Below are positions 1,040-16,956 of a DNA stretch of 64,000 nt, in pieces (within the stretch, counting starts at the first letter, position 1; the number at the start of each line of letters is the position of its first letter). Location: assembly GCF_988243305.1 (NCBI RefSeq), contig NZ_OZ547136.1; one strand, given 5' to 3'. Both the position numbers and the translations under genes were made by a program. A model generated the notes under the pieces. That model saw only the letters and a list, made by a program, of their open reading frames with translations. It did no database searches and was not told where the DNA came from.

Positions 1040-2269
1040 AGTAACCTCACTATACACAGATATAAAAGCACTGCAATTCTGGCTATTAATAGCAAAAATA
1101 GCAGTCAAATCAATATGAGGTAAAATTTTTTGTTGATTTAATGGTTAAATAATAACCACAGTGTATTTTGCTGCTGAAGAAAGACAAAATGAATCTGTGT
1201 GTCCCCTCCTTCCCTTCGGAGCACATCCACTATTCAAATTTTACACAACCACGTACGAACAAAAAGCATCATCCCGGGTATTGCAGATACCGGTTTCCTG
1301 CCGGGAAGAATCATAAACAGAACACCGGGAATAACGCCTTCAGGAATCACCCCCCCTCCTGAAGAAGAATAAAATAAAGAAGACTACAGTTCCTGCACTG
1401 AATGCTGAGTACAATATTTTATGGACAGGATGACATTTTTATAAATAACAAAAACCATTTAATACTGATACATCAATAAAATACTTCTTCCCTGCTGACA
1501 CAGATAAAATGCACCATTTTTTCTTCAAATACTTCTGTATAATCGCCAGCCAATGATGAGAATGGATTAAAATAACACTTCTTCGACAAACACAAAAACA
1601 GCCTTCATTTTACATCATCATCCAGTTTCAGTTAACCCCGGACGAGCGACAGTGTTTCAGTACAGGAATTAAAAGCCAGCTTTTGCTCAGTAAAACACAC
1701 TCAACTAATAATATCTCAGCAGATATTATCCTGACCAGGACACCTCACATTACTGAATTCTCTTCCGACAGTATCACTGCACAAATAAAAAAGAACGGGA
1801 TAAATATTCAGACCGGAAGAATGGTGTCACAAAAGCATTTAATCATTACGCATGACCAGGAAGGGAAACACTTAACCACATGGTATCAACAGATATCATT
1901 ACGTGTGCACTCTTATAAAAAACACACAGAAGAAGTAAGATAATTATAAACGTAAATTTAATATCTCCCACTGACATCTCCCCCACAATACACTAAAAAA
2001 TACTCACAGCAGTAAACACAGACACACCTGATAATCATACAGCCGATAAATATTTTCCCCTTTACGGAGAAATCAGCCTGCTGTTTAACAATAACGGCGT
2101 ATTTTCATGGAAGGAGATCACCCAGTAACGGATAAGTCCTGATCTCCTTCATGTTAATACGCAACAATCCCATCGATTCAAAACAATTTCAGACAGATAT
2201 TATCTCCGTGAATCCCCCGCCACCTTTCCGGTGCGCGGGGTTTTGTCTTTTTTCACCGGGAATACATGT

Positions 2270-3142
2270 ATGAATCCGTCTGATGCCATTGAGGCAATTG
2301 AAAAACCGCTCTCCTCCCTGCCTTACTCACTTTCCCGTCACATCCTGGAACATCTGCGCAAACTCACCAGTCACGAACCCGTGATTGGCATTATGGGTAA
2401 AAGCGGGGCCGGTAAATCCTCACTCTGTAATGCACTGTTTCAGGGGGAGGTCACCCCGGTCAGTGATGTTCACGCCGGCACCCGGGAAGTGCGGCGCTTC
2501 CGTCTGAGTGGCCACGGTCACAGCATGGTTATCACTGACCTGCCCGGGGTGGGCGAGAGCCGGGACAGGGATGCAGAGTATGAAGCCCTGTACCGTGACA
2601 TTCTGCCCGAACTGGACCTGGTGCTGTGGCTGATTAAAGCCGATGACCGCGCCCTGTCTGTGGATGAGTATTTCTGGCGACACATCCTGCACCGGGGACA
2701 TCAGCAGGTGCTGTTTGTGGTGACGCAGGCCGACAAAACGGAGCCCTGCCATGAATGGGATATGGCCGGCATTCAGCCTTCTCCCGCACAGGCACAGAAC
2801 ATTCGGGAGAAAACGGAGGCGGTATTCCGTCTGTTCCGGCCCGTACATCCGGTTGTTGCCGTATCGGCCCGCACCGGCTGGGAACTGGATACGCTGGTCA
2901 GTGCGCTAATGACAGCACTTCCCGACCATGCCGCCAGTCCCCTGATGACCCGCCTGCAGGACGAGCTGCGCACGGAATCTGTCCGCGCTCAGGCCCGTGA
3001 ACAGTTTACCGGTGCGGTGGACCGGATATTTGACACGGCGGAGAGCGTCTGTGTTGCCTCTGTTGCCCGTACGGTTCTGCGTGCCGTCCGTGACACGGTG
3101 GTCTCTGTTGCCCGCGCTGTATGGAACTGGATTTTCTTCTGA
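2270..3142 (+). CDS. yeeP: YeeP/YfjP/YkfA-family GTPase (50S ribosome-binding GTPase-like)
   Basis: ORF 2231..3142; P-loop GIMGKSGAGKSSLCN and G3-like DLPGVGE motifs; ORF-track start is GTG at 2231, first in-frame ATG (MNPSD...) is at 2270; start choice uncertain. Confidence 0.7.
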   Translation: MNPSDAIEAIEKPLSSLPYSLSRHILEHLRKLTSHEPVIGIMGKSGAGKSSLCNALFQGEVTPVSDVHAGTREVRRFRLSGHGHSMVITDLPGVGESRDRDAEYEALYRDILPELDLVLWLIKADDRALSVDEYFWRHILHRGHQQVLFVVTQADKTEPCHEWDMAGIQPSPAQAQNIREKTEAVFRLFRPVHPVVAVSARTGWELDTLVSALMTALPDHAASPLMTRLQDELRTESVRAQAREQFTGAVDRIFDTAESVCVASVARTVLRAVRDTVVSVARAVWNWIFF

Positions 3143-3226
3143 ACAGTCTGCCAGGGAAATGCCTGATAACATTACGTTAACCAACTGAAAACATGACACA
3201 AACCCCTCATACTCCTCCTGTTTCTC

Positions 3227-3255
3227 TTGCGTGACCGCCTTGTCGTTAATAGAAT
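3227..3255 (+). promoter_or_regulatory. candidate sigma70 promoter of flu/agn43 (TTGCGT-17 bp-TAGAAT)
   Basis: -35-like ttgcgt 3227-3232, 17-bp spacer, -10-like tagaat 3250-3255, immediately upstream of the GATC cluster. Confidence 0.5.
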
Positions 3256-3260
3256 AAAAC

Positions 3261-3296
3261 GATCGATAAAACAGGTATTGATCGTTGCTATCGATC
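3261..3296. promoter_or_regulatory. three clustered GATC (Dam) sites; agn43 Dam/OxyR phase-variation region
   Basis: GATC at 3261-3264, 3280-3283 and 3293-3296 within 36 bp, about 220 bp upstream of the flu ATG; matches the known three-GATC OxyR operator architecture of agn43. Confidence 0.7.
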
Positions 3297-3513
3297 GTTT
3301 ATAGTGGTTAATGGTCTGCGAAAAGGCAGCTGAATCTCTTCATCATGCAGAACGGAATTGCACACAACGGACTGATACTTCTCTGGCGGATGAGAGAGGG
3401 GAAGCATTTATGTCCGGGAAAAACCACTTTATCTGAGCATGCTGTTTTGTACCTGCCGGTATCCACATTTGTGGGTACCGGCTTTTTTATTCACCCTCTG
3501 TAAGGAAAAGCTG

Positions 3514-6500
3514 ATGAAACGACATCTGAACACCAGCTACAGGCTGGTATGGAATCACATTACGGGCACCCTGGTGGTGGCCTCCGAACTGGCCCGCTCA
3601 CGGGGAAAACGCGCTGGTGTGGCGGTTGCGCTGTCTCTTGCTGCTGTCACATCAGTCCCGGCACTGGCTGCTGACAAGGTTGTACAGGCGGGAGAAACCG
3701 TGAACGACGGAACACTGACAAATCATGACAACCAGATTGTCCTCGGTACGGCCAACGGAATGACCATCAGTACCGGTCTGGAGTATGGGCCGGATAACGA
3801 GGCCAATACCGGCGGACAATGGATACAAAATGGCGGTATCGCCAACAACACTACTGTCACCGGTGGTGGTCTTCAGAGAGTGAATGCCGGAGGAAGCGTT
3901 TCAGACACGGTTATCAGTGCCGGAGGCGGACAGAGCCTTCAGGGGCAGGCAGTGAACACCACTCTGAACGGCGGTGAGCAGTGGGTACATGAAGGCGGGA
4001 TTGCAACGGGTACCGTCATTAATGAGAAGGGCTGGCAGGCCATCAAATCCGGCGCAGTGGCAACCGACACGGTTGTGAATACCGGCGCGGAAGGGGGACC
4101 GGATGCGGAAAATGGTGATACCGGGCAGACCGTCTACGGAGATGCCGTACGCACCACCATCAATAAAAATGGTCGTCAGATTGTGGCTGCTGAAGGAACG
4201 GCAAATACCACTGTGGTTTATGCCGGCGGCGACCAGACTGTACATGGTCACGCACTGGATACCACGCTGAATGGGGGGTACCAGTATGTGCACAACGGCG
4301 GTACGGCGTCTGGCACTGTTGTAAACAGTGACGGCTGGCAGATTGTCAAAAATGGGGGTGTGGCCGGGAATACCACCGTTAATCAGAAGGGCAGACTGCA
4401 GGTGGACGCCGGTGGTACAGCCACGAATGTCACCCTGAAGCAGGGCGGCGCACTGGTTACCAGTACGGCTGCAACCGTTACCGGCATAAACCGCCTGGGA
4501 GCATTCTCTGTTGTGGAGGGTAAAGCTGATAATGTCGTACTGGAAAATGGCGGACGCCTGGATGTGCTGACCGGACACACAGCCACTAATACCCGCGTGG
4601 ATGATGGCGGAACGCTGGATGTCCGCAACGGTGGCACCGCCACCACCGTATCCATGGGAAATGGCGGTGTACTGCTGGCCGATTCCGGTGCCGCTGTCAG
4701 TGGTACCCGGAGCGACGGAAAGGCATTCAGTATCGGAGGTGGTCAGGCGGATGCCCTGATGCTGGAAAAAGGCAGTTCATTCACGCTGAACGCCGGTGAT
4801 ACGGCCACGGATACCACGGTAAATGGCGGACTGTTCACCGCCAGGGGCGGCACACTGGCGGGCACCACCACGCTGAATAACGGCGCCATACTTACCCTTT
4901 CCGGGAAGACGGTGAACAACGATACCCTGACCATCCGTGAAGGCGATGCACTCCTGCAGGGAGGCTCTCTCACCGGTAACGGCAGCGTGGAAAAATCAGG
5001 AAGTGGCACACTCACTGTCAGCAACACCACACTCACCCAGAAAGCCGTCAACCTGAATGAAGGCACGCTGACGCTGAACGACAGTACCGTCACCACGGAT
5101 GTCATTGCTCAGCGCGGTACAGCCCTGAAGCTGACCGGCAGCACTGTGCTGAACGGTGCCATTGACCCCACGAATGTCACTCTCGCCTCTGGTGCCACCT
5201 GGAATATTCCCGATAACGCCACGGTGCAGTCGGTGGTGGATGACCTCAGCCATGCCGGACAGATTCATTTCACCTCCACCCGCACAGGGAAGTTCGTACC
5301 GGCAACCCTGAAAGTGAAAAACCTGAACGGACAGAATGGCACCATCAGCCTGCGTGTACGCCCGGATATGGCACAGAACAATGCTGACAGACTGGTCATT
5401 GACGGTGGCAGGGCAACCGGAAAAACCATCCTGAACCTGGTGAACGCCGGCAACAGTGCGTCGGGGCTGGCGACCAGCGGTAAGGGTATTCAGGTGGTGG
5501 AAGCCATTAACGGTGCCACCACGGAGGAAGGGGCCTTTATCCAGGGGAATAAGCTGCAGGCCGGTGCCTTTAACTACTCCCTCAACCGGGACAGTGATGA
5601 GAGCTGGTATCTGCGCAGTGAAAATGCTTATCGTGCAGAAGTCCCCCTGTATGCCTCCATGCTGACACAGGCAATGGACTATGACCGGATTCTGGCAGGC
5701 TCCCGCAGCCATCAGACCGGTGTAAGCGGTGAAAATAACAGCGTCCGTCTCAGCATTCAGGGCGGTCATCTCGGTCACGATAACAACGGCGGTATTGCCC
5801 GTGGAGCCACGCCGGAAAGCAGCGGCAGCTATGGCTTCGTCCGTCTGGAGGGTGACCTGCTCAGAACAGAGGTTGCCGGTATGTCTGTGACCGCGGGGGT
5901 ATATGGTGCTGCTGGCCATTCTTCCGTTGATGTTAAGGATGATGACGGCTCCCGTGCCGGCACGGTCCGGGATGATGCCGGCAGCCTGGGCGGATACCTG
6001 AATCTGATACACAACGCCTCCGGCCTGTGGGCTGACATTGTGGCCCAGGGAACCCGCCACAGCATGAAAGCCTCATCGGACAATAACGACTTCCGCGTCC
6101 GGGGCTGGGGCTGGCTGGGTTCGCTGGAAACCGGTCTGCCCTTCAGTATCACTGACAATCTGATGCTGGAGCCGCAACTGCAGTACACCTGGCAGGGACT
6201 CTCCCTGGATGACGGCCAGGATAACGCCAGTTATGTGAAGTTCGGGCATGGCAGTGCACAACATGTGCGTGCCGGCTTCCGTCTGGGCAGCCACCACGAT
6301 ATGAACTTTGGTAAAGGCACCTCATCCCGTGACACCCTGCGCGGCAGTGCCAAACACAGTGTGCGTGAACTGCCGGTGAACTGGTGGGTACAGCCTTCTG
6401 TTATCCGCACCTTCAGCTCCCGGGGGGGCATGAGCATGGGTACAGCCGCAGCCGGCAGTAACATGACGTTCTCACCGTCACAGAATGGTACGTCACTGGA

Positions 6501-6633
6501 CCTGCAGGCCGGACTGGAAGCCCGTGTCCGGGAAAATATCACCCTGGGCGTTCAGGCAGGTTATGTCCACAGCGTCAGCGGCAGCAGCGCTGAAGGCTAT
6601 AACGGTCAGGCCACGCTGAATGTGACCTTCTGA
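3514..6633 (+). CDS. flu: antigen 43 self-associating autotransporter
   Basis: ORF 3439..6633; canonical Ag43 N-terminus MKRHLNTSYRLVWNHITGTLVVASELARS begins at ATG 3514 after aaggaaaag; long beta-helical passenger with repetitive G/T/N-rich repeats and C-terminal beta-barrel ending in TLNVTF. Confidence 0.9.
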   Translation: MKRHLNTSYRLVWNHITGTLVVASELARSRGKRAGVAVALSLAAVTSVPALAADKVVQAGETVNDGTLTNHDNQIVLGTANGMTISTGLEYGPDNEANTGGQWIQNGGIANNTTVTGGGLQRVNAGGSVSDTVISAGGGQSLQGQAVNTTLNGGEQWVHEGGIATGTVINEKGWQAIKSGAVATDTVVNTGAEGGPDAENGDTGQTVYGDAVRTTINKNGRQIVAAEGTANTTVVYAGGDQTVHGHALDTTLNGGYQYVHNGGTASGTVVNSDGWQIVKNGGVAGNTTVNQKGRLQVDAGGTATNVTLKQGGALVTSTAATVTGINRLGAFSVVEGKADNVVLENGGRLDVLTGHTATNTRVDDGGTLDVRNGGTATTVSMGNGGVLLADSGAAVSGTRSDGKAFSIGGGQADALMLEKGSSFTLNAGDTATDTTVNGGLFTARGGTLAGTTTLNNGAILTLSGKTVNNDTLTIREGDALLQGGSLTGNGSVEKSGSGTLTVSNTTLTQKAVNLNEGTLTLNDSTVTTDVIAQRGTALKLTGSTVLNGAIDPTNVTLASGATWNIPDNATVQSVVDDLSHAGQIHFTSTRTGKFVPATLKVKNLNGQNGTISLRVRPDMAQNNADRLVIDGGRATGKTILNLVNAGNSASGLATSGKGIQVVEAINGATTEEGAFIQGNKLQAGAFNYSLNRDSDESWYLRSENAYRAEVPLYASMLTQAMDYDRILAGSRSHQTGVSGENNSVRLSIQGGHLGHDNNGGIARGATPESSGSYGFVRLEGDLLRTEVAGMSVTAGVYGAAGHSSVDVKDDDGSRAGTVRDDAGSLGGYLNLIHNASGLWADIVAQGTRHSMKASSDNNDFRVRGWGWLGSLETGLPFSITDNLMLEPQLQYTWQGLSLDDGQDNASYVKFGHGSAQHVRAGFRLGSHHDMNFGKGTSSRDTLRGSAKHSVRELPVNWWVQPSVIRTFSSRGGMSMGTAAAGSNMTFSPSQNGTSLDLQAGLEARVRENITLGVQAGYVHSVSGSSAEGYNGQATLNVTF

Positions 6634-6753
6634 CAGAACCATCGCCTCTCTGTGGTCCCGGTCATCATGATCGGGACCCGGACCGGCGCAACGGATATTC
6701 AACGCCACATTCGCTGGCATTAACAATAACATGATATTCATCACGGAGTGACT

Positions 6754-9270
6754 ATGTTACAGATAGTCGGCGCGCTGATCCTGCTGATCGCAGGATTTGC
6801 CATTCTTCGCCTTTTGTTCAGAGCATTAATCAGCACGGCTTCTGCGCTGGCAGGGCTCATATTGCTGTGTCTGTTCGGCCCGGCCTTACTGGCTGGCTAT
6901 ATCACCGAACGCATAACCCGGTTGTTCCATATTCGCTGGCTGGCAGGCGTATTTCTGACGATTGCCGGAATGATCATCAGCTTCATGTGGGGACTTGATG
7001 GTAAACATATCGCGCTGGAGGCTCACACCTTTGACTCTGTGAAATTTATTCTGACCACCGCTCTCGCCGGTGGTCTGCTGGCTGTTCCCCTGCAGATCAA
7101 AAACATTCAGCAGAACGGGATCACACCAGAAGATATCAGCAAGGAAATTAACGGGTATTACTGCTGTTTTTATACTGCCTTTTTCCTTATGGCGTGTTCT
7201 GCATGCGCACCATTGATCGCGTTACAGTACGATATTTCACCGTCACTGATGTGGTGGGGCGGGTTGTTGTACTGGCTGGCTGCATTAGTGACGCTGCTAT
7301 GGGCGGCCAGCCAAATCCAGGCGCTGAAAAAACTGACCTGTGCCATCAGCCAGACACTGGAAGAACAACCGGTGCTCAACAGTAAATCGTGGCTGACCAG
7401 TTTGCAAAACGATTACAGCCTTCCTGACTCACTGACGGAGCGCATCTGGCTGACGCTCATTTCTCAACGGATTTCCCGGGGAGAGCTGAGGGAATTTGAA
7501 CTGGCAGACGGAAACTGGTTACTGAACAATGCCTGGTATGAAAGAAACATGGCAGGGTTTAACGAACAGTTGAAAGAGAACCTGTCATTCACACCTGATG
7601 AACTGAAAACGCTCTTCCGGAACCGCCTGAATTTATCACCGGAAGCGAATGACGATTTTCTCGATCGTTGCCTGGACGGCGGTGACTGGTATCCCTTTTC
7701 AGAAGGTCGCCGTTTTGTATCATTCCATCACGTGGATGAGCTTCGTATCTGTGCCTCCTGCGGGCTGACAGAAGTACATCATGCCCCGGAAAATCATAAG
7801 CCGGATCCGGAATGGTACTGCTCCTCTCTTTGTCGCGAAACAGAAACACTGTGTCAGGAAATTTATGAACGCCCTTACAACAGCTTTATTTCCGATGCAA
7901 CGGCGAATGGTCTGATTCTCATGAAACTGCCGGAAACCTGGAGTACAAATGAGAAAATGTTTGCTTCCGGAGGGCAGGGACATGGGTTTGCCGCTGAACG
8001 GGGAAACCATATTGTCGACAGAGTCCGTCTGAAAAACGCACGGATCCTCGGTGATAATAATGCCAGAAATGGAGCAGACAGACTGGTCAGCGGAACAGAA
8101 ATCCAGACGAAATATTGTTCAACTGCAGCCCGTAGCGTCGGTGCGGCATTCGACGGACAAAACGGACAGTATCGTTACATGGGAAATAATGGCCCCATGC
8201 AACTGGAAGTCCCCCGTGATCAGTATGCCGGCGCTGTTGAAACCATGAGGAATAAGATCCGCGAAGGTAAAGTACCCGGTGTAACCGATCCCGCAGAAGC
8301 ATCCCGGCTGATTCGTCGGGGACATCTGACTTATACTCAGGCCCGTAATATCACCCGGTTCGGGACCATCGAATCGGTCACTTATGATATTGCCGAGGGT
8401 TCGGTTGTCAGTCTGGCGGCCGGAGGGATCAGTTTTGCCCTGACGGCATCGGTCTTCTGGCTCAGCACCGGCGATCGCGATGCTGCCCTGCAGACAGCTG
8501 CTGTCCAGGCAGGAAAAACCTTCACCCGCACACTGGCTGTCTACGTCACAACCCAGCAACTCCACCGGCTCAGTGTTGTTCAGGGTATGCTGAAGCACAT
8601 TGATTTTTCGACTGCCAGCCCGACTGTTCGACTGGCTCTTCAGAAGGGGACCGGTGCAGGAAATATCAGTGCCCTGAACAAAGTGATGAAGGGTACGCTG
8701 GTGACATCTCTGGCACTGGTAGCTGTCACAACCGGCCCTGACATGATCAAAATGTTGCGGGGACGGATCTCCGGTACGCAGTTCATCAGGAATCTTGCCG
8801 TGGCATCTTCCGGTGTGGCAGGTGGTGCTGTCGGGTCAGTGGCGGGCGGAATACTGTTCAGTCCACTGGGACCATTTGGTGCACTGACAGGGCGTGTGGT
8901 TGGCGGTGTTCTGGGGGGAATGATTGCCTCCGCTGTATCAGGAAAAATTGCCGGAGCGCTGGTTGAAGAAGATCGCGTCAAAATTCTGGCAATGATTCAG
9001 GAGCAGGTGACATGGCTTGCCGGCAGTTTCCTGCTGACCGGACATGAGATTGAAAATCTGAACGAGAATCTGGCCCGTGTTATCGATCAGAATGCTCTGG
9101 AGATCATTTTCGCCGCCGGTATACAACAACGGGCCGCGACCAATATGTTAATCAAACCACTGGTGGTCAGTATCATCAGGCAACGCCCCGTCATGGAATA
9201 TGATGCATCCCATCTCGGCAATATGGTTAACCGACTGGAAGAAGCATTACCCCCGGAGTTACCGGCATAA
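6754..9270 (+). CDS. yeeR: YeeR-like inner membrane protein (enlarged, about 838 aa)
   Basis: ORF 6748..9270; several hydrophobic N-terminal helices and a glycine-rich hydrophobic C-terminal block; sits directly after flu as yeeR does in CP4-44; ATG at 6754 preferred over GTG 6748 (ggag 5 nt upstream). Confidence 0.55.
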   Translation: MLQIVGALILLIAGFAILRLLFRALISTASALAGLILLCLFGPALLAGYITERITRLFHIRWLAGVFLTIAGMIISFMWGLDGKHIALEAHTFDSVKFILTTALAGGLLAVPLQIKNIQQNGITPEDISKEINGYYCCFYTAFFLMACSACAPLIALQYDISPSLMWWGGLLYWLAALVTLLWAASQIQALKKLTCAISQTLEEQPVLNSKSWLTSLQNDYSLPDSLTERIWLTLISQRISRGELREFELADGNWLLNNAWYERNMAGFNEQLKENLSFTPDELKTLFRNRLNLSPEANDDFLDRCLDGGDWYPFSEGRRFVSFHHVDELRICASCGLTEVHHAPENHKPDPEWYCSSLCRETETLCQEIYERPYNSFISDATANGLILMKLPETWSTNEKMFASGGQGHGFAAERGNHIVDRVRLKNARILGDNNARNGADRLVSGTEIQTKYCSTAARSVGAAFDGQNGQYRYMGNNGPMQLEVPRDQYAGAVETMRNKIREGKVPGVTDPAEASRLIRRGHLTYTQARNITRFGTIESVTYDIAEGSVVSLAAGGISFALTASVFWLSTGDRDAALQTAAVQAGKTFTRTLAVYVTTQQLHRLSVVQGMLKHIDFSTASPTVRLALQKGTGAGNISALNKVMKGTLVTSLALVAVTTGPDMIKMLRGRISGTQFIRNLAVASSGVAGGAVGSVAGGILFSPLGPFGALTGRVVGGVLGGMIASAVSGKIAGALVEEDRVKILAMIQEQVTWLAGSFLLTGHEIENLNENLARVIDQNALEIIFAAGIQQRAATNMLIKPLVVSIIRQRPVMEYDASHLGNMVNRLEEALPPELPA

Positions 9271-9345
9271 CGGCTATTCTGCGCCTTTTACGCTTTATCA
9301 CCTGATTTGTCAGTGTCATCGTCATGACTCAGAGAGGTAAATACC

Positions 9346-9801
9346 ATGATTCACCTGTTCAAAACCTGCATGATTACCGCCTTCATTCTGGGGTTAACGT
9401 GGTCTGCCCCACTCCGGGCACAGGATCAACGTTACATCAGTATACGCAATACAGATACGATATGGCTCCCGGGAAATATTTGTGCTTACCAGTTCCGGCT
9501 GGATAATGGCGGAAACGATGAAGGATTTGGCCCCCTCACCATCACTCTGCAACTCAAAGACAAATATGGTCAGACGCTGGTGACCAGAAAAATGGAAACG
9601 GAAGCTTTTGGTGACAGTAATGCCACGCGAACCACAGACGCATTTCTGGAAACGGAGTGCGTGGAAAATGTCGCCACAACCGAAATCATCAAAGCAACTG
9701 AAGAAAGTAACGGCCATCGTGTCAGTCTGCCGTTATCGGTTTTCAATCCCCAGGACTACCATCCACTGCTGATTACCGTTTCCGGAAAAAACGTTAACTG
9801 A
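9346..9801 (+). CDS. hypothetical secreted protein (signal peptide)
   Basis: ORF with N-terminal signal-like sequence MIHLFKTCMITAFILGLTWSAPLRA; gagagg RBS 8 nt upstream. Confidence 0.5.
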   Translation: MIHLFKTCMITAFILGLTWSAPLRAQDQRYISIRNTDTIWLPGNICAYQFRLDNGGNDEGFGPLTITLQLKDKYGQTLVTRKMETEAFGDSNATRTTDAFLETECVENVATTEIIKATEESNGHRVSLPLSVFNPQDYHPLLITVSGKNVN

Positions 9802-9879
9802 TCCCTGAAGTCAGTTTCATGCTTCAGCCTCTGTCACAACGCGTGGCAGAGGCTTTTTATTTATCAGGAGAAAACAGAT

Positions 9880-10113
9880 ATGCCGGGTTACACAGAGTAT
9901 GTCCTGGCTGAAGGATCTTTCTCATACGGGCAGGCGGTTGCTGTCATAACCGCTTACCGCAATGTGTTTATCCAGGATGACCCGGGAATGCATTTCCGTC
10001 GGGTTATCCGCAACGCGGAAGGTCAGCGACGCTGGCGCTGCCGGAATTCTGAACCCGATGCCGGAAAGGTGCTTAATACGCGGCTCGCCAGTGACGGTCT
10101 TCTCAGACAATAA
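9880..10113 (+). CDS. small island protein (DUF905/YkfF-like by position)
   Basis: 77-aa ORF with aggag RBS; occupies the slot of the small DUF905 gene preceding DUF932 in CP4-type modules; family assignment from memory only. Confidence 0.4.
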
Positions 10114-10212
10114 ACGTCATTCATTTCACCCATCAGGCCGCGTCTTCTCCGGGAGACGTGGCTTTTTCATTTATTACACCAGTAAATCTTAACCACCGAT
10201 AAGGAGCAAATT

Positions 10213-11031
10213 ATGCGACTAGCCAGTCGTTTTGGTTATGCGAACCAGATACGCCGTGACCGTCCGCTGACACACGAAGAACTGATGCACTATGTGCCGG
10301 GGATTTTCGGGGAAGATAAACACACGTCCCGAAGCCAGAACTATACGTACATCCCCACCATCACCGTACTGGAAAGCCTGCAGCGGGAAGGCTTTCAGCC
10401 ATTCTTCGCCTGCCAGACCCGTGTGCGCGACCCGGGCCGCCGGGGATACACAAAACACATGCTGCGTCTGCGGCGGGCCGGAGAGATAAACGGAGAACAT
10501 GTCCCTGAAATTATTCTGCTCAACTCTCATGACGGTACCTCCAGCTACCAGATGCTGCCGGGTTACTTCAGGTTCGTCTGCCAGAACGGATGCGTCTGTG
10601 GTCAGTCTCTGGGGGAAGTGCGTGTTCCGCACCGGGGAAATGTGGTGGACAGAGTCATTGAAGGGGCTTACGAGGTGGTGGGCGTGTTTGACCGGATTGA
10701 GGAAAAGCGTGATGCCATGCAGTCGCTGATTCTGCCGCCACCGGCACGCCAGGCGCTGGCACAGGCGGCACTGACTTACCGTTATGGTGACGAACATCAG
10801 CCCGTCACCACCGCCGACATTCTGACGCCACGACGCCGGGAGGATTACGGTAAGGACCTGTGGAGTGCTTATCAGACCATTCAGGAGAATATGCTGAAAG
10901 GCGGAATTTCAGGTCGCAGCGCTAAAGGAAAACGTATCCATACCCGTGCCATTCACAGCATTGACACTGACATTAAGCTCAACCGCGCATTGTGGGTGAT
11001 GGCGGAAACCCTGCTGGAGAGCCTGCGCTGA
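10213..11031 (+). CDS. DUF932 family protein (YfjQ/YafZ-like)
   Basis: 272-aa ORF with aaggag RBS; length and position match the YfjQ/YafZ family of CP4 prophage-like islands. Confidence 0.6.
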   Translation: MRLASRFGYANQIRRDRPLTHEELMHYVPGIFGEDKHTSRSQNYTYIPTITVLESLQREGFQPFFACQTRVRDPGRRGYTKHMLRLRRAGEINGEHVPEIILLNSHDGTSSYQMLPGYFRFVCQNGCVCGQSLGEVRVPHRGNVVDRVIEGAYEVVGVFDRIEEKRDAMQSLILPPPARQALAQAALTYRYGDEHQPVTTADILTPRRREDYGKDLWSAYQTIQENMLKGGISGRSAKGKRIHTRAIHSIDTDIKLNRALWVMAETLLESLR

Positions 11032-11085
11032 TTCAGCCATTACCCTGAAAACCACGCATTTATTTGTCCTTTAAGGAGTCATTTC

Positions 11086-11571
11086 ATGAAAACCATTTCA
11101 CATAATTCCACCACATCTTCTGTTTCCGTAACCGCTGCATCAGGGAATGACCAGCCTCAGTTGGTTGCCACCCTCGTCCCTGATGAACAGCGCATCAGCT
11201 TCTGGCCGCAGCACTTTGGCCTCATTCCACAGTGGGTGACCCTGGAGCCCCGTGTCTTCGGCTGGATGGACCGTCTGTGTGAAGACTACTGCGGTGGTAT
11301 CTGGAATCTGTACACCCTGAACAACGGCGGGGCATTTATGGCACCCGAACCGGATGACGATGATGACGAAACATGGGTACTGTTCAATGCCATGAACGGT
11401 AACCGCGCTGAAATGAGTCCGGAAGCTGCCGGCATTGCTGCCTGTCTGATGACGTACAGTCATCATGCCTGTCGTACGGAGTGTTATGCCATGACGGTCC
11501 ATTATTACCGGCTGCGGGATTACGCCCTGCAGCATCCGGAATGCAGCGCCATTATGCGCATCATCGACTGA
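11086..11571 (+). CDS. antirestriction protein (ArdB/KlcA-like, YfjX/YafX family)
   Basis: 161-aa ORF, aaggag RBS, acidic DDDDDE stretch; conserved position upstream of the radC-like gene. Confidence 0.6.
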   Translation: MKTISHNSTTSSVSVTAASGNDQPQLVATLVPDEQRISFWPQHFGLIPQWVTLEPRVFGWMDRLCEDYCGGIWNLYTLNNGGAFMAPEPDDDDDETWVLFNAMNGNRAEMSPEAAGIAACLMTYSHHACRTECYAMTVHYYRLRDYALQHPECSAIMRIID

Positions 11572-11586
11572 ATGGAGAGAAGTACA

Positions 11587-12063
11587 ATGCAACAGCTTTC
11601 CTTTCTGCCCGGAGAGATGACGCCCGGCGAGCGCAGCCTCATTCAACGGGCCCTGAAAACCCTGGACCGCCATCTTCATGAACCCGGCGTGGCCTTCACC
11701 TCCACCCGTGCGGCACGAGAATGGCTGATTCTGAACATGGCGGGACTGGAGCGTGAAGAGTTCCGGGTGCTGTATCTGAACAACCAGAATCAGCTGATTG
11801 CCGGTGAAACCCTCTTCACCGGCACCATCAACCGCACGGAAGTCCATCCCCGTGAAGTGATTAAACGCGCCCTGTATCACAATGCCGCTGCTGTGGTGCT
11901 GGCACACAATCACCCGTCCGGTGAAGTCACACCCAGCAAGGCAGACCGCCTTATCACGGAACGTCTGGTACAGGCACTGGGCCTGGTGGATATCCGGGTG
12001 CCGGACCATCTGATAGTCGGTGGCAGCCAGGTTTTCTCCTTTGCCGAACATGGTCTGCTTTAA
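11587..12063 (+). CDS. yeeS: RadC-like JAB-domain protein
   Basis: JAMM-like motif HNHPSGEVTPSKADRLIT; K-12 YeeS-like N-terminus MQQLSFLPGEMTPGERS at ATG 11587 (ORF-track start 11572). Confidence 0.75.
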   Translation: MQQLSFLPGEMTPGERSLIQRALKTLDRHLHEPGVAFTSTRAAREWLILNMAGLEREEFRVLYLNNQNQLIAGETLFTGTINRTEVHPREVIKRALYHNAAAVVLAHNHPSGEVTPSKADRLITERLVQALGLVDIRVPDHLIVGGSQVFSFAEHGLL

Positions 12064-12125
12064 CCCGTCACAACCACATCACACCTGTTTTCACTTTTAT
12101 CTTCTGTCTTCAGAGGTATCCCACT

Positions 12126-12347
12126 ATGAAAATCATCACCCGTGGCGAAGCCATGCGTATTCACCGTCAGCATCCGGCATCCCGTCTTTTTCCGTTCTGT
12201 ACCGGCAAATACCGCTGGCACGGCAGTGCTGAAGCGTATACCGGTCGTGAAGTGCAGGATATTCCCGGTGTGCTGGCCGTATTTGCAGAACGCCGTAAGG
12301 ACAGTTTTGGTCCGTATGTCCGGCTGATGAGCGTCACCCTGAACTGA
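12126..12347 (+). CDS. yeeT: DUF987 small protein
   Basis: 73-aa ORF MKIITRGEAMRIHRQHPASRLFPFCTGKYRWHG, in the conserved position upstream of cbeA. Confidence 0.6.
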   Translation: MKIITRGEAMRIHRQHPASRLFPFCTGKYRWHGSAEAYTGREVQDIPGVLAVFAERRKDSFGPYVRLMSVTLN

Positions 12348-12509
12348 TGTTCCGTCACCCGGAAAACGAGTACGACTGGCTGAGCTCAGACGCCGCTGTG
12401 GATGAGGTCCTGCTCATCAACGAATACACCTTTACCGAAGCCGGTCTGCGCGCCGGCTGACCCGTCATCGTTAAACTATCATTCACCGATTTTCTGTGAG
12501 GATTTTATC

Positions 12510-12878
12510 GTGTCAGACACACTTTCCGGGACAACGCATCCCGATGACAATGACGACCATCCCTGGTGGGGACTACCCTGCACAGTGACGCCCTGTTTCG
12601 GCGCCCGTCTGGTGCAGGAGGGTAACCGCCTGCATTACCTTGCCGACCGCGCCGGTATCAGAGGCCTGTTCAGCGATGCAGATGCGTACCACCTGGACCA
12701 GGCCTTTCCGCTGCTGATGAAACAACTGGAACTCATGCTCACCAGCGGTGAACTGAATCCCCGCCATCAGCATACCGTCACGCTGTATGCAAAAGGTCTG
12801 ACCTGCAAAGCTGACACTCTCGGTAGCGGTGGTTACGTTTATCTGGCTGTTTATCCGACGCCCGAAACGAAAAAGTAA
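12510..12878 (+). CDS. cbeA: CbeA antitoxin (YeeU family, type IV TA)
   Basis: In-frame GTG at 12510 gives a 122-aa product [38 protein letters not shown]...; the ORF-track start at 12402 is probably an upstream extension. Confidence 0.8.
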
Positions 12879-13342: not shown

Positions 13343-13827
13343 AACTTTCCCTGATGCTGGAAGCCGACAGAATTAATGTGCAGGCACTGAACATGGGGCG
13401 AATTGTCGTTGACGTCGATGGTGTTAATCTCACTGAACTGATTAACAAGGTCGCTGAAAACGGTTATTCACTCCGCGTGGTGGAGGAATCCGACCAACAG
13501 TCAACCTGCACACTACCACCGTTTGCAACCCTTGCCGGCATACGCTGCAGTACCGCACATATCACGGAAAAGGATAACGCCTGGCTGTACTCGCTGTCGC
13601 ATCAGACCAGTGACGTTGGTGAATCAGAATGGATTCATTTCACAGGTAGCGGATATCTGTTACGTACCGATGCGTGGTCATATCCGGTTCTGCGGCTTAA
13701 ACGCCTGGGGCTGTCAAAAACGTTCCGTCGTCTGGTTATCACACTTACCCGACGTTATGGCGTCAGTCTCATTCATCTGGATGCCAGCGCTGAATGCCTG
13801 CCGGGTTTACCCACTTTCAACTGGTAA
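13339..13827 (+). CDS. yeeW: YeeW-like protein
   Basis: 162-aa ORF overlapping the cbtA stop by 4 bp (ATGA), the position yeeW holds in CP4-44. Confidence 0.5.
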
Positions 13828-13838
13828 CCAGGAACAAC

Positions 13839-14036
13839 ATGAAATCATTAACCACGGAAACCGCACTGGATATTCTGATTGCGTGGCTGCAGGACAATAT
13901 CGACTGCGAATCGGGAATTATCTTTGACAACAATGAGGATAAAACGGATTCAGCAGCACTGTTGCCCTGTATCGAACAGGCCAGAGAGGATATCCGTACC
14001 CTGCGCCAACTGCAGCTTCAGCACCAGAACCGGTGA
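13839..14036 (+). CDS. small hypothetical protein (65 aa)
   Basis: ATG at 13839 preceded by aggaa; followed by a clear terminator. Confidence 0.35.
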   Translation: MKSLTTETALDILIAWLQDNIDCESGIIFDNNEDKTDSAALLPCIEQAREDIRTLRQLQLQHQNR

Positions 14037-14066
14037 GTCTTACTCACCAGACTTCATTCCACTGAC

Positions 14067-14097
14067 GCCAGCCTGAACAGGGCTGGCATTTTCATTT
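14067..14097 (+). terminator. rho-independent terminator
   Basis: Stem gccagcc (14067-14073) / ggctggc (14081-14087), loop tgaacag, then attttcattt. Confidence 0.6.
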
Positions 14098-14753
14098 ATC
14101 TGCAAAAAGGAATATCGATTATGTCTGATATCACAGCCTACCGTCCGGAAGTGGTCAACGAGAATACGGACGTTATCTGCTCAACCAGCATCCGCCGCAT
14201 TCTGGCTGTACGAAAGAGTTCACTGCTGCAAATCGACACAATTATCCGGCATCAAGTGAGCGATATCAGTTAACAGATATAGATGGAGAAGATGCTTTTA
14301 TCCGGATTGGTTCTATCGCGATGGTGCGAGTACTACTTGATGCAATGAAGCCTGTCGAGGAAGATGACGAGTAACAGAGCTCGGTATCTCAATCAGGAGC
14401 TGATTGTCCTGGTTCGATGCCGAAAACCAGTGATTTTTCGTGTTGGTATCTGTGTTGGTATAAGATGATATTGTTTATTATTAACAATTTTAAATCATGA
14501 GGTTAAGTCACATGTTTGAGTCCGGCCTTCGCACCTTCGCACCTTCGCACCATCGGAACATCAATAGACATCAACGGACGTTTTTTTATGACTGAAATCC
14601 GCGCCACACAAGGCTTTTCGCTATTTTTCGCTCAACCTAAGTCAACCTACATCAACTTACTGATGTGGATACAGCTACAGCTGCGGCTATACCCCGATTC
14701 GATAATGTTTGTACCCACACAAAACCCTTGAAAGGCTACAAGGCTGAAATTGT

Positions 14754-15238
14754 CTAAACCATAGAGATGATTTTTATGATCCAGTCTTTCTCTTGTTGAG
14801 ATAGTTCCAGTTTGCTCACTCGTGTTAAGAAGGTATTGATCACCTGAACATCCGAATTGGTGAGCCTATTTAATAGAGCGGGTGGTATACCTTTACTAAC
14901 AATCGCTTTGCGGTGACTTTCGTAGTTTTTATTACTCATTGTTGATCCTAAAAAATCATTGTATGGCGGCATTGATCGTTTCCAGCAACCTTTACTTACT
15001 CACTTCGAACTGCATCCTCGTAGACTGTTCCACTACAATAATCGAAAAGGCGCGGATGTCCATTCAGGTATCCCGCTAATACGTATAGCAATAACAATGG
15101 CTTATGCGGCGCGCGCTGTTCACCCTTGTGCCAGATTTTTATATTGGCAATTGCCTGCTGTAGCGATTTACTGGAAGCTATTGATATCCCTGGCAGTGAA
15201 ATAATTGCGATCATGCTCGCAAATTTTCTGCTGTTCAA
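14754..15238 (-). pseudogene. possible disrupted gene (two adjacent short ORFs, 80 aa and 72 aa)
   Basis: ORFs 14996..15238 and 14754..14972 on the same strand in different frames separated by 23 bp; divergent from the HNH gene; no recognisable family. Confidence 0.25.
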
Positions 15239-15317
15239 GCCTGCAAGTGAAGATATATTACCTTGATCTCATTTGTTTTTTTGCTGCCTGTTCTGAGAAC
15301 GTATAAGGACATTCTCC

Positions 15318-15968
15318 ATGAATAAACTCCCTGATCATCTTCCGCGGCGGTATATCATCGAAGCTATCCATTTATGGGATGCGGGAGAAACTCATCAGTT
15401 CCAGCCTGCGCGGTTGTATGAGATTGAATATCATGGCCGACGTTACCCCTCGAAGGCGATTGCTGGCATCGCAGCGACATTGATGACGGGGACGCAATTT
15501 ACCCCTGCGGATTTCACCGGCGGAATAAAATCTAAATGTGTCAAGCTACTCATAGAGCAGGGATTTCATATTCATCTGGATAAAGCCGCTGCGGCTCCCA
15601 TAGCCGACGTTCTGTTCCCGGATGAGTTGCCGTCGCAGGAGACATACCTTGAAGGTGCGGCGATAAAGGTGACAGTAAACCGCTATGAACGCGATAAAAA
15701 GGCCCGAGATAAAGCGGTCGAACATCATGGATGCCAGTGCAACGTATGCGGTGTTGATCTGGTGAAGATCTATGGTGATATCGCTGAAGGCTTTATCCAT
15801 GTGCATCACCTGGTGCCGCTGTCAGCCATTAAAGAGGATTACCAGCTGGATCCAGTTAATGATTTGCTGCCTGTGTACCCTAATTGCCATGCGATGTTGC
15901 ACCGACGCAAACCACCGTTTACGCCGGAGCAGTTAAAAGCGCTGATGGATGCGAATAAATCAAATTAA
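15318..15968 (+). CDS. HNH endonuclease family protein
   Basis: 216-aa ORF; C-terminal HNH signature CQCNVCG ... HVHHLVPLS ... NCHAMLH (two Cys pairs flanking His/Asn catalytic positions); N-terminal about 120 aa of unknown function. Confidence 0.7.
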   Translation: MNKLPDHLPRRYIIEAIHLWDAGETHQFQPARLYEIEYHGRRYPSKAIAGIAATLMTGTQFTPADFTGGIKSKCVKLLIEQGFHIHLDKAAAAPIADVLFPDELPSQETYLEGAAIKVTVNRYERDKKARDKAVEHHGCQCNVCGVDLVKIYGDIAEGFIHVHHLVPLSAIKEDYQLDPVNDLLPVYPNCHAMLHRRKPPFTPEQLKALMDANKSN

Positions 15969-15975
15969 TGAACGC

Positions 15976-16956
15976 TCACCTTTCGCGCCAAAACTGCAAA
16001 ATTGCTTCTACAAACTTGTCAGAAATAATCCCCCGACGGGCTGCCGTGCTGAAATGACTGCTTCGCAGTGCCGTCGTCCAGTTCTCCGGTGACCGGTACG
16101 CTGAACCGTAATATCCCGTGCTTAAATCGTCCGGGTCTTCATCAGGCGCGTTCGTCAGTCCTCTTTCACCTTGTTGCTGGAAGTCGACGAAAATAATATT
16201 GGCTAAAACATTATTTTGATAATTGCCATAAATAACTTCATACGCATGAGGGAAATTTTCTTTCCAGTACCAGGTGGTATCGCCGCAAAACCACGGTGCG
16301 TCAGTAATATTATTAAGCTGAGAATGGTATTGTTTTAGATCCCTACGAAAGGCTTCAACCATATGATTAAAGTGTTGAGGGTGTGACGCGTAGTCACTGG
16401 TCATTAAGTCAAATTCGCCTTGCATCCAGCATACGCCGAGGAATTTGTTATGCGGATTTTTTGCCAGTGCGGCTCGCGTTCTGCTGACTAAATCCTGGTA
16501 TAGCGGAGTATCCGTTCCCCAACGACAAGCATCATGGCTGGCTCCGTGCCGTTCTGAATATGTTCCTTCGCTGCCCGCGGTAAAAGCCGATCCGCCACGG
16601 CAACACGGAACGATGAGAACCCCTGCATTATCAGGAATAAAGGGCAGTAATTTCCGTGCTATATGCAGTGCCTGGCCAACGGTGCCGTACTGTGTTTGAT
16701 GATTCGTTGCCAGAGGATGGTGATAACCCTGCATATCCTGAACATCGTGTGGGCAGTGAGTCAGTGGAATAATGTCGTTAAAGTGACATGACGGGCCTCC
16801 GGGATGCGTATGCGCAAATCTCGCTAATTGTTTAATTCTGGGATGAGGCGCATCTTCCCTGTCCGGTAATGGCAGTCCTTCGCCATACGCCATGGCATTA
16901 GACTGACCAGCAACGGTAAGAATATAGTAATAATCAGGCGATATTATTGCGTTCAT
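15976..16956 (-). CDS. nanS: N-acetyl-9-O-acetylneuraminate esterase
   Basis: ORF 15976..16983; K-12-like N-terminus MNAIISPDYYYILTVAGQSNAMAYGEG starts at ATG 16956; 326 aa. Confidence 0.85.
   Translation of the reverse strand: MNAIISPDYYYILTVAGQSNAMAYGEGLPLPDREDAPHPRIKQLARFAHTHPGGPSCHFNDIIPLTHCPHDVQDMQGYHHPLATNHQTQYGTVGQALHIARKLLPFIPDNAGVLIVPCCRGGSAFTAGSEGTYSERHGASHDACRWGTDTPLYQDLVSRTRAALAKNPHNKFLGVCWMQGEFDLMTSDYASHPQHFNHMVEAFRRDLKQYHSQLNNITDAPWFCGDTTWYWKENFPHAYEVIYGNYQNNVLANIIFVDFQQQGERGLTNAPDEDPDDLSTGYYGSAYRSPENWTTALRSSHFSTAARRGIISDKFVEAILQFWRER

What the first reader, a model, noticed from the sequence alone, without database searches (positions are those of the whole stretch)
14040..15975. 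Island junction: decayed fragments, a 9-bp tandem repeat, a split ORF pair and an HNH nuclease 7 bp from nanS
After the terminator at 14067-14097 the sequence holds only short frame fragments (for example a 50-codon frame at 14120-14272) and ccttcgcac repeated three times at about 14520-14546. Two same-strand short ORFs (14754-15238, minus) look like one gene split by a frameshift. Divergent from them is a 216-aa HNH-motif protein whose stop lies 7 bp from the convergent nanS stop, which argues for insertion directly against core DNA. Stand-alone HNH nucleases at island edges are frequent type IV restriction-like or other defence components, and the N-terminal 120 aa match nothing I recognise.
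Basis: partly seen in the sequence, partly recalled or inferred. Interest (0 to 1): 0.55.

Follow-up and report, generated by a model that had tools for sequence, protein, structure and literature searches.

The report
Decayed restriction-gene pair beside nanS
This stretch is the worn end of an E. coli genomic island next to the sialic-acid gene nanS: it holds a tRNA-derived integration scar, a dead stub of a known sulfur-DNA-specific restriction enzyme, and an intact but probably crippled copy of an uncharacterised restriction-like HNH nuclease, so it is mostly ordinary.

Summary
The sequence features are real, but several interpretations change.

- **Tandem repeat.** It has an 8-bp unit (CCTTCGCA, 3.8 copies), not 9 bp. 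It is the multiplied end of a 17-bp copy of the leuX tRNA-Leu 3' end, which is the island's attachment-site scar.
- **The two minus-strand ORFs are not one frameshifted gene.**
  - One is the first 50 codons of an EcoWI-type SBD-HNH phosphorothioate-dependent restriction endonuclease. Its start codon is also mutated.
  - The other contains a complete 61-aa gene of unknown function (phrog_25874).
- **The 216-aa protein is ScoMcrA_N (head domain, PF26345) plus a McrA-type HNH.**
  - It belongs to a widespread, uncharacterised family.
  - Its domain partners (EVE, SRA, MrcB_N, McrB-like AAA_5) and its neighbours are those of type IV restriction systems.
  - PGAP already annotates it as "HNH endonuclease".
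- **It is not a fresh insertion against core DNA.**
  - The intact divergent pair sits beside nanS in about 6% of complete E. coli genomes.
  - The two genes are retained independently of each other.
  - K-12 keeps only relics, and its small protein YthB is one of them.
- **The window allele is probably impaired.** It carries C187Y at a structural zinc ligand that is otherwise nearly invariant.

Interest is modest.

The parts
13794..14036 (+). DUF957 gene, the last intact gene of the CP4-type island. PGAP calls a shorter version at 13839-14036.
   Evidence: ORF list. PGAP annotation of identical DNA in strain TUM9757.
14067..14097 (+). Terminator-like hairpin GCCAGCC-TGAAC-AGGGCTGGC followed by a T-run.
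   Evidence: Consensus scan. Function was not tested.
14121..14273 (+). N-terminal fragment (50 codons) of a DUF4942 gene.
   Evidence: ORF. PGAP annotates it as 'DUF4942, incomplete, missing C-terminus' in identical genomes. No HMM hit was obtained here.
14246..14374 (+). C-terminal fragment of a helix-turn-helix regulator gene.
   Evidence: PGAP annotation of identical DNA. Not tested independently.
14518..14534 (+). Copy of the leuX tRNA-Leu(CAA) 3' end, GAGTCCGGCCTTCGCAC. This is the att core and the right end of the CP4-type island.
   Evidence: Aligns to the genuine leuX 3' end in strain rl0044 and in C. freundii. It is unique in the window. Strain I2 is 95.5% identical up to this point and diverges immediately after it.
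14526..14555 (+). 8-bp tandem repeat CCTTCGCA, 3.8 copies. It is the multiplied end of the att core.
   Evidence: TRF. Genuine leuX has one copy. Other E. coli strains have 3 or 4 copies.
14552..14740 (+). Homologue of the sequence that follows intact leuX, up to the start of a tyrosine-integrase gene. The integrase itself is absent.
   Evidence: Alignment to L004 4001-4215.
14754..14939 (-). Complete 61-aa gene of unknown function (phrog_25874; WP_000066585.1). It lies within the 72-aa ORF 14754-14972.
   Evidence: PHROG match covers profile positions 1-61 of 61, E 6.5e-47. PGAP calls it in strain 81 and on a plasmid. No Pfam, NCBIfam or PADLOC hit.
15032..15181 (-). Dead stub (codons 2-51) of an EcoWI-type SBD-HNH phosphorothioate-dependent restriction endonuclease. 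The start codon is ATG->ATA, and homology ends at about 15038.
   Evidence: NF045808 profile positions 2-45 of 284, E 1.7e-16. tblastn with the intact I2 enzyme matches residues 1-50 only. Alignment with intact alleles.
15182..15317 (.). Divergent intergenic region. It contains the conserved palindrome TTGCGATCATGCTCGCAA (15205-15222) and the translation start region of the HNH gene.
   Evidence: Alignment A4 shows conservation in Citrobacter. The K-12 small protein YthB, which uses the same start region, was detected by tagging.
15318..15968 (+). 216-aa ScoMcrA_N (head domain) plus HNH endonuclease (WP_001037966.1), the allele with C187Y.
15968..16057 (+). 29-codon ORF antisense to the nanS 3' end. 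It supplies the C-terminal part of K-12 YthB.
   Evidence: Translation. PGAP 'hypothetical protein'.
15976..16956 (-). nanS (sialate O-acetylesterase). The ORF is open for 326 codons and is convergent with the HNH gene.
   Evidence: ORF list and translation. Annotated intact in GF43 and EC12.

Best explanation
The region is the nanS-proximal edge of the variable DNA downstream of tRNA leuX in E. coli.

Layout, left to right:
1. The right end of a CP4-type island: DUF957, a truncated DUF4942 gene and a truncated HTH gene. It stops at a 17-bp copy of the leuX 3' end, whose last 8 bp are multiplied 3.8 times.
2. About 190 bp that normally follow leuX and lead into an integrase gene. The integrase is gone.
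3. An intact 61-aa gene of unknown function.
4. The remains of an older two-gene restriction islet.
   - One gene is an EcoWI-type SBD-HNH enzyme that cuts phosphorothioated DNA. Here it is reduced to 50 codons without a start codon.
   - The other, divergently transcribed, is an intact ORF for a ScoMcrA_N-HNH protein.

Inferred mechanism of the family:
- It is a stand-alone nuclease that probably dimerises and depends on a divalent metal (beta-beta-alpha-Me fold).
- The flexible N-terminal head domain directs it to foreign, probably modified, DNA. It would act like a type IV restriction enzyme and independently of the SBD-HNH neighbour.

Inferred for this allele: the C187Y change removes one of the four cysteines that hold the structural zinc. 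The protein in this strain is therefore probably inactive or weakened, a gene early in decay.
For: Shown: anatomy
- leuX copy and integrase leader.
- Repeat.
- SBD-HNH stub.
- 61-aa gene.

Shown: ancestral state and decay
- The intact divergent pair lies beside nanS in ARS-C101, GF43, EC12 and PEC422.
- Among 5426 complete E. coli genomes, 1238 hold at least 80% of the HNH gene, 1707 hold at least 80% of the SBD-HNH gene, and 326 hold both. About 389 would be expected if the two were independent.
- K-12 and BL21 keep only a stub of each gene.

Shown: identity of the 216-aa protein
- A 99%-identical cluster carries PF26345 ScoMcrA_N.
- phmmer matches the ScoMcrA head domain (5zmm residues 29-92) and the EcoKMcrA HNH domain.
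- The AlphaFold model has mean pLDDT 83.

Shown: selection
- dN/dS is 0.07-0.25 among E. coli alleles.

Shown: type IV vocabulary
- The ScoMcrA_N profile finds 3763 cluster representatives.
- Of 82 longer proteins scanned, partners include HNH/HNH_2, EVE (13), NOV_C (8), AAA_5 (7), SAD_SRA, MrcB_N, AspBHI_N and Mrr_N.
- The same HNH cassette is fused to DUF3427, EVE and DpnI_C in other proteins.

Shown: context
- Neighbours include a type I R subunit, Mrr_N-HNH and McrBC.

Shown: independence from the neighbour
- EcoWI cuts and restricts on its own (PMC7461809).
- Seven of 11 full-length family loci have no SBD gene nearby.

Shown: C187Y
- Cys is present at this position in at least 90% of the 51 aligned family members and in all six other E. 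coli alleles examined.
- It aligns to C248 of EcoKMcrA, in the second CxxC motif that binds the structural Zn.
Against: - No experiment exists for any ScoMcrA_N-HNH protein.
[quoted passage not shown] Its role as a DNA or modification sensor is inferred only from domain company.
- PADLOC hits are weak: mREase_IV at E 1e-4 over partial stretches.
- The C187Y allele is identical in roughly 630 genomes, and the ORF is otherwise intact with all catalytic histidines. The change might therefore be tolerated.
- The lineage-specific count of 4 nonsynonymous and 3 synonymous changes is too small to show relaxed selection.
- The co-occurrence counts are not corrected for phylogeny.
Confidence: 0.6

Rival explanations
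1. The 216-aa protein is a fully active stand-alone defence nuclease in this strain. The C187Y change is tolerated, for example through a three-ligand zinc site or a zinc-independent fold.
For: The ORF is intact and all catalytic residues are kept (H163, H164, N189, H191, H195). The identical allele is carried by hundreds of genomes. The family is under purifying selection. The shared start region is translated in K-12, as shown by YthB.
Against: Cys187 is nearly invariant across the family and aligns to a structural Zn ligand of EcoKMcrA. The window lineage has 4 private amino-acid changes against 3 silent ones. Its partner gene is already destroyed.
Confidence: 0.28
2. The two divergent genes form an obligate two-component system, a 'split ScoMcrA' made of head-HNH plus SBD-HNH. 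The surviving HNH gene is then a useless orphan.
For: The divergent pair is conserved in E. coli, Citrobacter, Enterobacter and K. aerogenes. ScoMcrA carries both the head and SBD domains in one chain. An E. coli integrative-element paralogue has an SBD-HNH_2 gene 4 kb away.
Against: EcoWI-type enzymes work alone in vitro and in vivo. The KO11FL genome has the SBD-HNH gene intact with the HNH gene deleted. The two genes are retained independently in E. coli (326 genomes with both against about 389 expected). Seven of 11 more distant family loci have no SBD neighbour.
Confidence: 0.08
3. The protein is a homing endonuclease, a mobile-element maintenance nuclease or a housekeeping nuclease rather than a defence protein.
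For: HNH domains occur in homing endonucleases. PHROG HNH families give weak hits (E 3e-7).
Against: There is no intron, intein or phage-packaging context. Distribution is patchy, about 23% of E. coli genomes. The closest structures are type IV restriction enzymes. The N-domain keeps company with restriction-type readers.
Confidence: 0.04

Closest known systems
ScoMcrA (Streptomyces coelicolor Sco4631; PDB 5ZMM), a type IV PT- and 5mC-dependent restriction endonuclease
   Different: ScoMcrA is 561 aa and has SBD and SRA reader domains between head and HNH. The 216-aa protein has only a disordered ~30-residue linker. In ScoMcrA, PT recognition is done by the SBD, not by the head domain, whose function is unknown.
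EcoKMcrA (E. coli K-12 McrA; PDB 6GHC)
   Same: McrA-type HNH domain with CxxC...CxxC zinc site and HH...H...H active site. Two-domain plan of N-terminal specificity domain plus C-terminal HNH.
   Different: The N-terminal domain (NEco) is unrelated to ScoMcrA_N. EcoKMcrA keeps all four Zn cysteines, whereas the window allele has Tyr in place of the third.
EcoWI (SBD-HNH, cuts GpsAAC N7/N6; PMC7461809)
   Same: The 50-codon stub at 15032-15181 is the N-terminus of this type of enzyme (NF045808). The intact allele in the E. coli W derivative KO11FL sits at the same nanS-adjacent site and has a calculated mass of 33.3 kDa, against 33.4 kDa reported for EcoWI.
   Different: In the window the gene is dead. 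That the KO11FL gene is EcoWI is inferred, because the paper gives no accession. The 216-aa protein itself is not an SBD protein (NF045808 17 bits against a cut-off of 180).
EVE-HNH, SRA-HNH and wH-HNH modification-dependent endonucleases (VcaM4I, TagI, HhiV4I-type)
   Different: The reader domain here is ScoMcrA_N. No ligand is known for it.

Membership tests
PF26345 ScoMcrA_N (ScoMcrA-like N-terminal head domain) | Sequence match to the family profile or to the founding structure | tested here: met
   The 99%-identical cluster P0001 and most homologues carry a precomputed PF26345 hit (name). phmmer to 5zmm_A residues 29-92 gives E 1e-3. The Pfam copy used by profile_search lacks this family.
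PF26345 ScoMcrA_N | Same fold as the ScoMcrA head domain | tested here: met
HNH / beta-beta-alpha-Me endonuclease (PF01844, McrA type) | Catalytic His-His, Asn and metal-binding His residues | tested here: met
   H163, H164, N189, H191 and H195 are invariant in the family and present in the window protein. They align to H228, H229, H252 and H256 of EcoKMcrA. The Pfam HNH hit is weak (E 0.006).
HNH / beta-beta-alpha-Me endonuclease (McrA type) | Structural zinc held by two CxxC motifs | tested here: not met
   C141-x2-C144 is present. The second motif reads Y187-P-N-C190 in the window allele, against C187 in at least 90% of the family and in six other E. coli alleles. The role of the motif is taken from PMC6182155.
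Type IV (modification-dependent) restriction endonuclease | Cleaves only modified DNA and restricts modified phage or plasmid | not testable with these tools
   No experimental data were found for any ScoMcrA_N-HNH protein.
Type IV (modification-dependent) restriction endonuclease | Architecture of reader domain plus nuclease, located in a defence neighbourhood | tested here: inconclusive
   The architecture and domain company fit, and so do the neighbours. PADLOC mREase_IV models match only weakly and partially (E 1e-4 and 2.5e-4). No ligand is known for the head domain.
NF045808 phosphorothioated DNA-binding restriction endonuclease (SBD-HNH), tested on the 80-aa ORF | Full-length match above the curated cut-off (180 bits) | tested here: not met
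   60.2 bits, covering profile positions 2-45 of 284 only. tblastn with an intact enzyme matches residues 1-50 only. The start codon is ATA. It is a fragment, not a gene.
One gene split by a frameshift (80-aa plus 72-aa ORFs) | Both ORFs align to consecutive parts of one intact homologue | tested here: not met
   No part of the intact 289-290-aa enzyme aligns to 14754-14972. That ORF contains a complete phrog_25874 protein.
Homing endonuclease | Encoded in an intron, an intein or free-standing in a phage genome next to its target | tested here: not met
   The gene is chromosomal, lies between a restriction-gene stub and nanS, and there is no intron or intein.

The most novel reading that the evidence does not exclude
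ScoMcrA_N is a new sensor domain for a DNA modification or DNA feature that has not been identified. On this reading, ScoMcrA_N-HNH proteins are a large unstudied family of minimal type IV restriction enzymes. In enterobacteria they would pair with an SBD-HNH enzyme as a two-specificity cassette that has sat at the leuX flank across genera.
Probability: 0.3. Interest if true: 0.5.

Novelty: new member of a known kind. Interest (0 to 1): 0.3.

Why it matters
For this window it matters little. The locus is a decaying remnant, it is already annotated by PGAP, and the surviving allele is probably impaired.

Three points have some wider use:
- The ScoMcrA head domain, left without a function in the 2018 structure paper, turns out to be a widespread module. 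It hit 3763 cluster representatives. It keeps company with EVE, SRA, MrcB_N, McrB-type and HNH modules, which makes its role testable in a minimal 216-aa protein.
- The nanS-adjacent SBD-HNH gene is probably the source of EcoWI. Its presence or absence across E. coli is a natural data set on the cost of PT-dependent restriction. The PT-modified strain B7A carries the dead version.
- The K-12 small protein YthB is explained as a deletion relic of this HNH gene.

Tried and rejected
- Frameshift-split gene: rejected.
- PADLOC on the four local ORFs: only weak mREase_IV hits for the 216-aa protein and nothing for the others.
- NCBIfam: nothing for the DUF957, DUF5983 or DUF4942-fragment ORFs, nor for the 72-aa ORF.
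- Pfam on the 72-aa ORF: nothing.
- Rfam on 13500-16500: nothing.
- ARAGORN on the whole window: no tRNA. The leuX copy is only a 3' fragment.
- Search for a second att copy between the HNH gene and nanS: none. No right-hand island boundary can be placed there.
- Homologue search with the N-domain alone through the word-indexed database: it returned only short fragments and was uninformative. The exhaustive profile search replaced it.
- Literature searches for PF26345/ScoMcrA_N and for the WP accessions: nothing found.
- Confirming EcoWI's accession from the paper and its supplement: not given. Only the predicted mass (33.4 kDa reported, 33.3 kDa calculated) and the strain lineage support the link.
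- Promoter scan: no promoter-like site above chance for the HNH gene (5 sites found, 4.4 expected).
Full report
**Observation**

- A terminator-like hairpin lies at 14067-14087 with a T-run.
- A 50-codon ORF lies at 14121-14273.
- Two minus-strand ORFs of 72 and 80 aa lie at 14754-14972 and 14996-15238.
- A 216-aa ORF lies at 15318-15968. Its stop is 7 bp from the nanS stop at 15976-15978.

The tandem repeat was mis-measured. Tandem Repeats Finder gives an 8-bp unit, CCTTCGCA, with 3.8 copies at 14526-14555.

**Where the window comes from**

The first 16 kb of the window are 100% identical to E. coli TUM9757 and several other strains. PGAP annotation of that DNA gives this order:
- the fec operon and IS66 elements;
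- a CP4-type island (YfjI, GTPase, Ag43, antirestriction protein, yeeS/yeeT, cbeA/cbtA, DUF5983, DUF957);
- a DUF4942 fragment;
- an HTH fragment;
- a fragment of a "phosphorothioated DNA-binding restriction endonuclease";
- an "HNH endonuclease" (WP_001037966.1);
- nanS, nanM and nanC.

The finding therefore lies at the nanS-proximal edge of the leuX-associated variable region. K-12 has KpLE2 in this position (my own knowledge).

**The repeat is an attachment-site scar**

Window 14518-14534 (GAGTCCGGCCTTCGCAC) is a copy of the 3' end of tRNA-Leu(CAA), leuX. The next ~190 bp (14552-14740) align to the sequence that follows genuine leuX in strain rl0044, up to the start codon of a tyrosine-integrase gene. 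ARAGORN finds no tRNA in the window, and the 17-mer occurs only once.

The 8-bp repeat is the end of this att core, multiplied. Genuine leuX has one copy, the window and one other strain have three, and two other strains have four. Strain I2 is 95.5% identical to the window up to the att core and diverges directly after it. This marks the core as the right end of the CP4-type island.

What lies to the right is older DNA that once followed leuX directly. The integrase is gone.

**The two minus-strand ORFs are not one split gene**

The 80-aa ORF matches NCBIfam NF045808 (PT-DNA restriction endonuclease), but only at profile positions 2-45 of 284. tblastn with the intact 289-aa enzyme of strain I2 aligns residues 1-50 to 15032-15181 and nothing else in the region. 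Alignment with intact E. coli alleles shows two things:
- homology stops at about 15038;
- the start codon is ATA instead of ATG.

Residues 12-72 of the 72-aa ORF match the whole 61-position profile of phrog_25874, of unknown function, at E 6.5e-47. PGAP calls this 61-aa protein (WP_000066585.1) in other records. So the stub of one gene abuts a complete, unrelated small gene.

The 297-bp segment 14741-15037 occurs at ≥80% coverage in 930 genomes. In every listed record it overlaps a restriction-endonuclease feature, and in the one record inspected (pPK8568) that feature is the truncated stub.

**Ancestral state**

Strains ARS-C101, GF43, EC12 and PEC422 carry an intact 290-aa SBD-HNH gene. It is transcribed divergently from an intact 216-aa HNH gene, with the same 7-bp junction to nanS. 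McrBC-family genes often lie further upstream.

Counts among 5426 complete E. coli genomes:

| Gene(s), at least 80% covered | Genomes |
|---|---|
| HNH gene | 1238 |
| SBD-HNH gene | 1707 |
| Both | 326 |
| Both, expected if independent | about 389 |

These counts are not corrected for phylogeny. As they stand, they give no sign that either gene needs the other.

K-12 and BL21 retain only a frameshifted SBD-HNH stub and the first 11 codons of the HNH gene. Strain HUM3355 retains only the last 34 bp of the HNH gene (41 bp matched including the 7-bp spacer) beside an IS1.

Alleles of the HNH gene differ by dS up to 0.19, with dN/dS of 0.07-0.25. The pair is thus an old resident that is being lost piecemeal, not a recent insertion against core DNA.

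Across genera the family also sits at the leuX flank:
- the att core lies 43 bp upstream of family members in Enterobacter sp. C2 and in an Enterobacteriaceae MAG;
- it lies about 400 bp from the SBD-HNH 3' end in three Citrobacter genomes, and similarly close in strain I2;
- a C. freundii member lies 1.6 kb downstream of intact leuX.

**The SBD-HNH neighbour**

KO11FL, a derivative of E. coli W (my own knowledge), has the gene order McrC, McrB, intact SBD-HNH (WP_000168572.1), HNH remnant, nanS. The calculated mass of that SBD-HNH protein is 33.3 kDa.

EcoWI is the characterised SBD-HNH enzyme. It cuts GpsAAC N7/N6, is a dimer, restricts dnd+ plasmids on its own, and has a predicted mass of 33.4 kDa (PMC7461809). 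The paper gives no accession. The identity of the two is therefore probable, not shown.

E. coli B7A has a chromosome PT-modified at GpsAAC. It carries the window-identical locus with the dead SBD-HNH gene (H9). That fits the incompatibility of an EcoWI-type enzyme with self PT modification. It also shows that this HNH allele coexists with PT-modified DNA.

**The 216-aa protein**

- Domains.
  - Pfam HNH matches weakly.
  - The 99%-identical database cluster and nearly all homologues carry PF26345, ScoMcrA_N.
  - phmmer against PDB sequences aligns residues 24-86 to the head domain of ScoMcrA (5zmm residues 29-92).
  - It aligns residues 123-198 to the HNH domain of EcoKMcrA.
- Model. An AlphaFold model built on 51 homologues has mean pLDDT 83. 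It shows two confident domains joined by a disordered linker at residues 92-121.
- The head domain. [quoted passage not shown]

**What the head domain keeps company with**

A profile of the N-domain finds 3763 cluster representatives of 100-1567 aa. Eighty-two of the longer ones were scanned with Pfam. Partner domains were:

| Partner domain | Members (E ≤ 0.001) |
|---|---|
| HNH | 30 |
| HNH_2 | 20 |
| EVE | 13 |
| NOV_C | 8 |
| AAA_5 (McrB-type) | 7 |
| nSTAND3 | 6 |
| SAD_SRA | 2 |
| DUF3427 | 2 |
| MrcB_N | 2 |
| AspBHI_N | 1 |
| Mrr_N | 1 |

Conversely, the C-terminal HNH cassette of this protein (NRYERDxxAR ... PNCHAMLH) occurs with other N-terminal domains in 69 of 80 genomic loci. Among the 67 proteins from those loci that were scanned with Pfam, these domains include DUF3427, EVE and DpnI_C.

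Neighbours of full-length members include a type I R subunit, Mrr_N-HNH, an HNH_2 protein and a dnd-like cluster. This is the domain vocabulary and the setting of type IV restriction. It supports a sensor-plus-nuclease mechanism by analogy but does not reveal the ligand.

The divergent SBD-HNH partner is present only in the closest relatives: 4 of 11 full-length loci, plus K. aerogenes and strain I2.

**The window allele**

In the 51-sequence alignment, Cys187 is at least 90% conserved (PVCPNCH). The window protein has Tyr (TGC to TAC). Six other E. coli alleles have Cys.

The position aligns to C248 of EcoKMcrA, the first Cys of the second CxxC motif. The two CxxC motifs coordinate the structural Zn2+ around which HNH domains are built (PMC6182155). 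All catalytic residues are intact.

The window lineage has 4 private nonsynonymous and 3 private synonymous changes. That count is too small to test for relaxed selection. By the ranking, the identical allele occurs in roughly 630 genomes.

I infer that this allele is probably weakened or inactive, with about 60% confidence.

**Expression**

The consensus scan gives no convincing promoter. However, K-12 YthB starts with the same 11 codons and the same upstream region (85.6% identical). It was detected as a chromosomally tagged protein, so the start region is translated.

**Verdict**

The junction and its decay are real and are now explained. The frameshift idea and the "inserted against core DNA" idea are not supported. 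The type IV-like reading of the HNH protein is supported by architecture, structure and context, but it is untested, and the copy in this window is probably impaired. The gene is already annotated and the domains are in Pfam. This is a new member of a known kind, of modest interest.

Noticed in passing
window 15318-15350 and 15968-16057; L005 3706-3804: The K-12/BL21 small protein YthB (32 aa) is a relic of this HNH gene. Its first 11 codons are the HNH start (MNKLPAHLSRQ against MNKLPDHLPRR). A deletion of about 626 bp between ~15-bp similar sequences fused them to a 29-codon ORF antisense to the nanS 3' end.
   Followed up: partly
window 14518-14555; L014, L105, L017, L019-L024, L101: The leuX att core recurs immediately upstream of ScoMcrA_N-HNH genes, or of the SBD-HNH/HNH pair, in Enterobacter, Citrobacter and an Enterobacteriaceae MAG. 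The 8-bp unit at its end varies between 3 and 4 copies among E. coli strains.
   Followed up: partly
E. coli B7A NZ_CP035812.1 456351-458286 (H9): The naturally PT-modified strain B7A carries the window-identical locus, with the dead SBD-HNH gene and the C187Y HNH allele. This is consistent with selection against an EcoWI-type enzyme in a dnd+ host.
   Followed up: no
L018 (KO11FL) 256-3373; L104, L106: In several strains McrB/McrC-family genes lie directly upstream of the intact SBD-HNH gene, forming a small restriction cluster beside nanS. The KO11FL gene is probably EcoWI.
   Followed up: partly
L015 (strain 81) 1-1247: A retron St85 (reverse transcriptase plus effector) lies just upstream of the att scar in strain 81. 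This is another defence system at the same hotspot.
   Followed up: no
L108 (plasmid pPK8568-122kb) 4074-6274: The 61-aa gene plus the SBD-HNH stub occur on plasmids between two IS1 copies, apparently a chromosomal fragment captured by IS1.
   Followed up: no
window 15205-15222: A perfect palindrome, TTGCGATCATGCTCGCAA, lies in the divergent intergenic region just upstream of the SBD-HNH start. It is conserved in Citrobacter despite ~70% overall identity and is deleted in BL21. It may be an operator or a 5'-UTR hairpin.
   Followed up: no
window 15976-16956: PGAP annotates nanS as an incomplete pseudogene in window-identical genomes although the 326-codon ORF is open. The cause may be that the overlapping YthB-like ORF at 15968-16057 is called instead; that is a guess.
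   Followed up: no
L100 (C. freundii) 6001-12651: A 54%-identical family member lies 1.6 kb downstream of intact leuX. It sits next to a 675-aa unknown protein and a dnd-like cluster (Aminotran_5, dnd-associated domain, SMC/AAA_23 protein).
   Followed up: no
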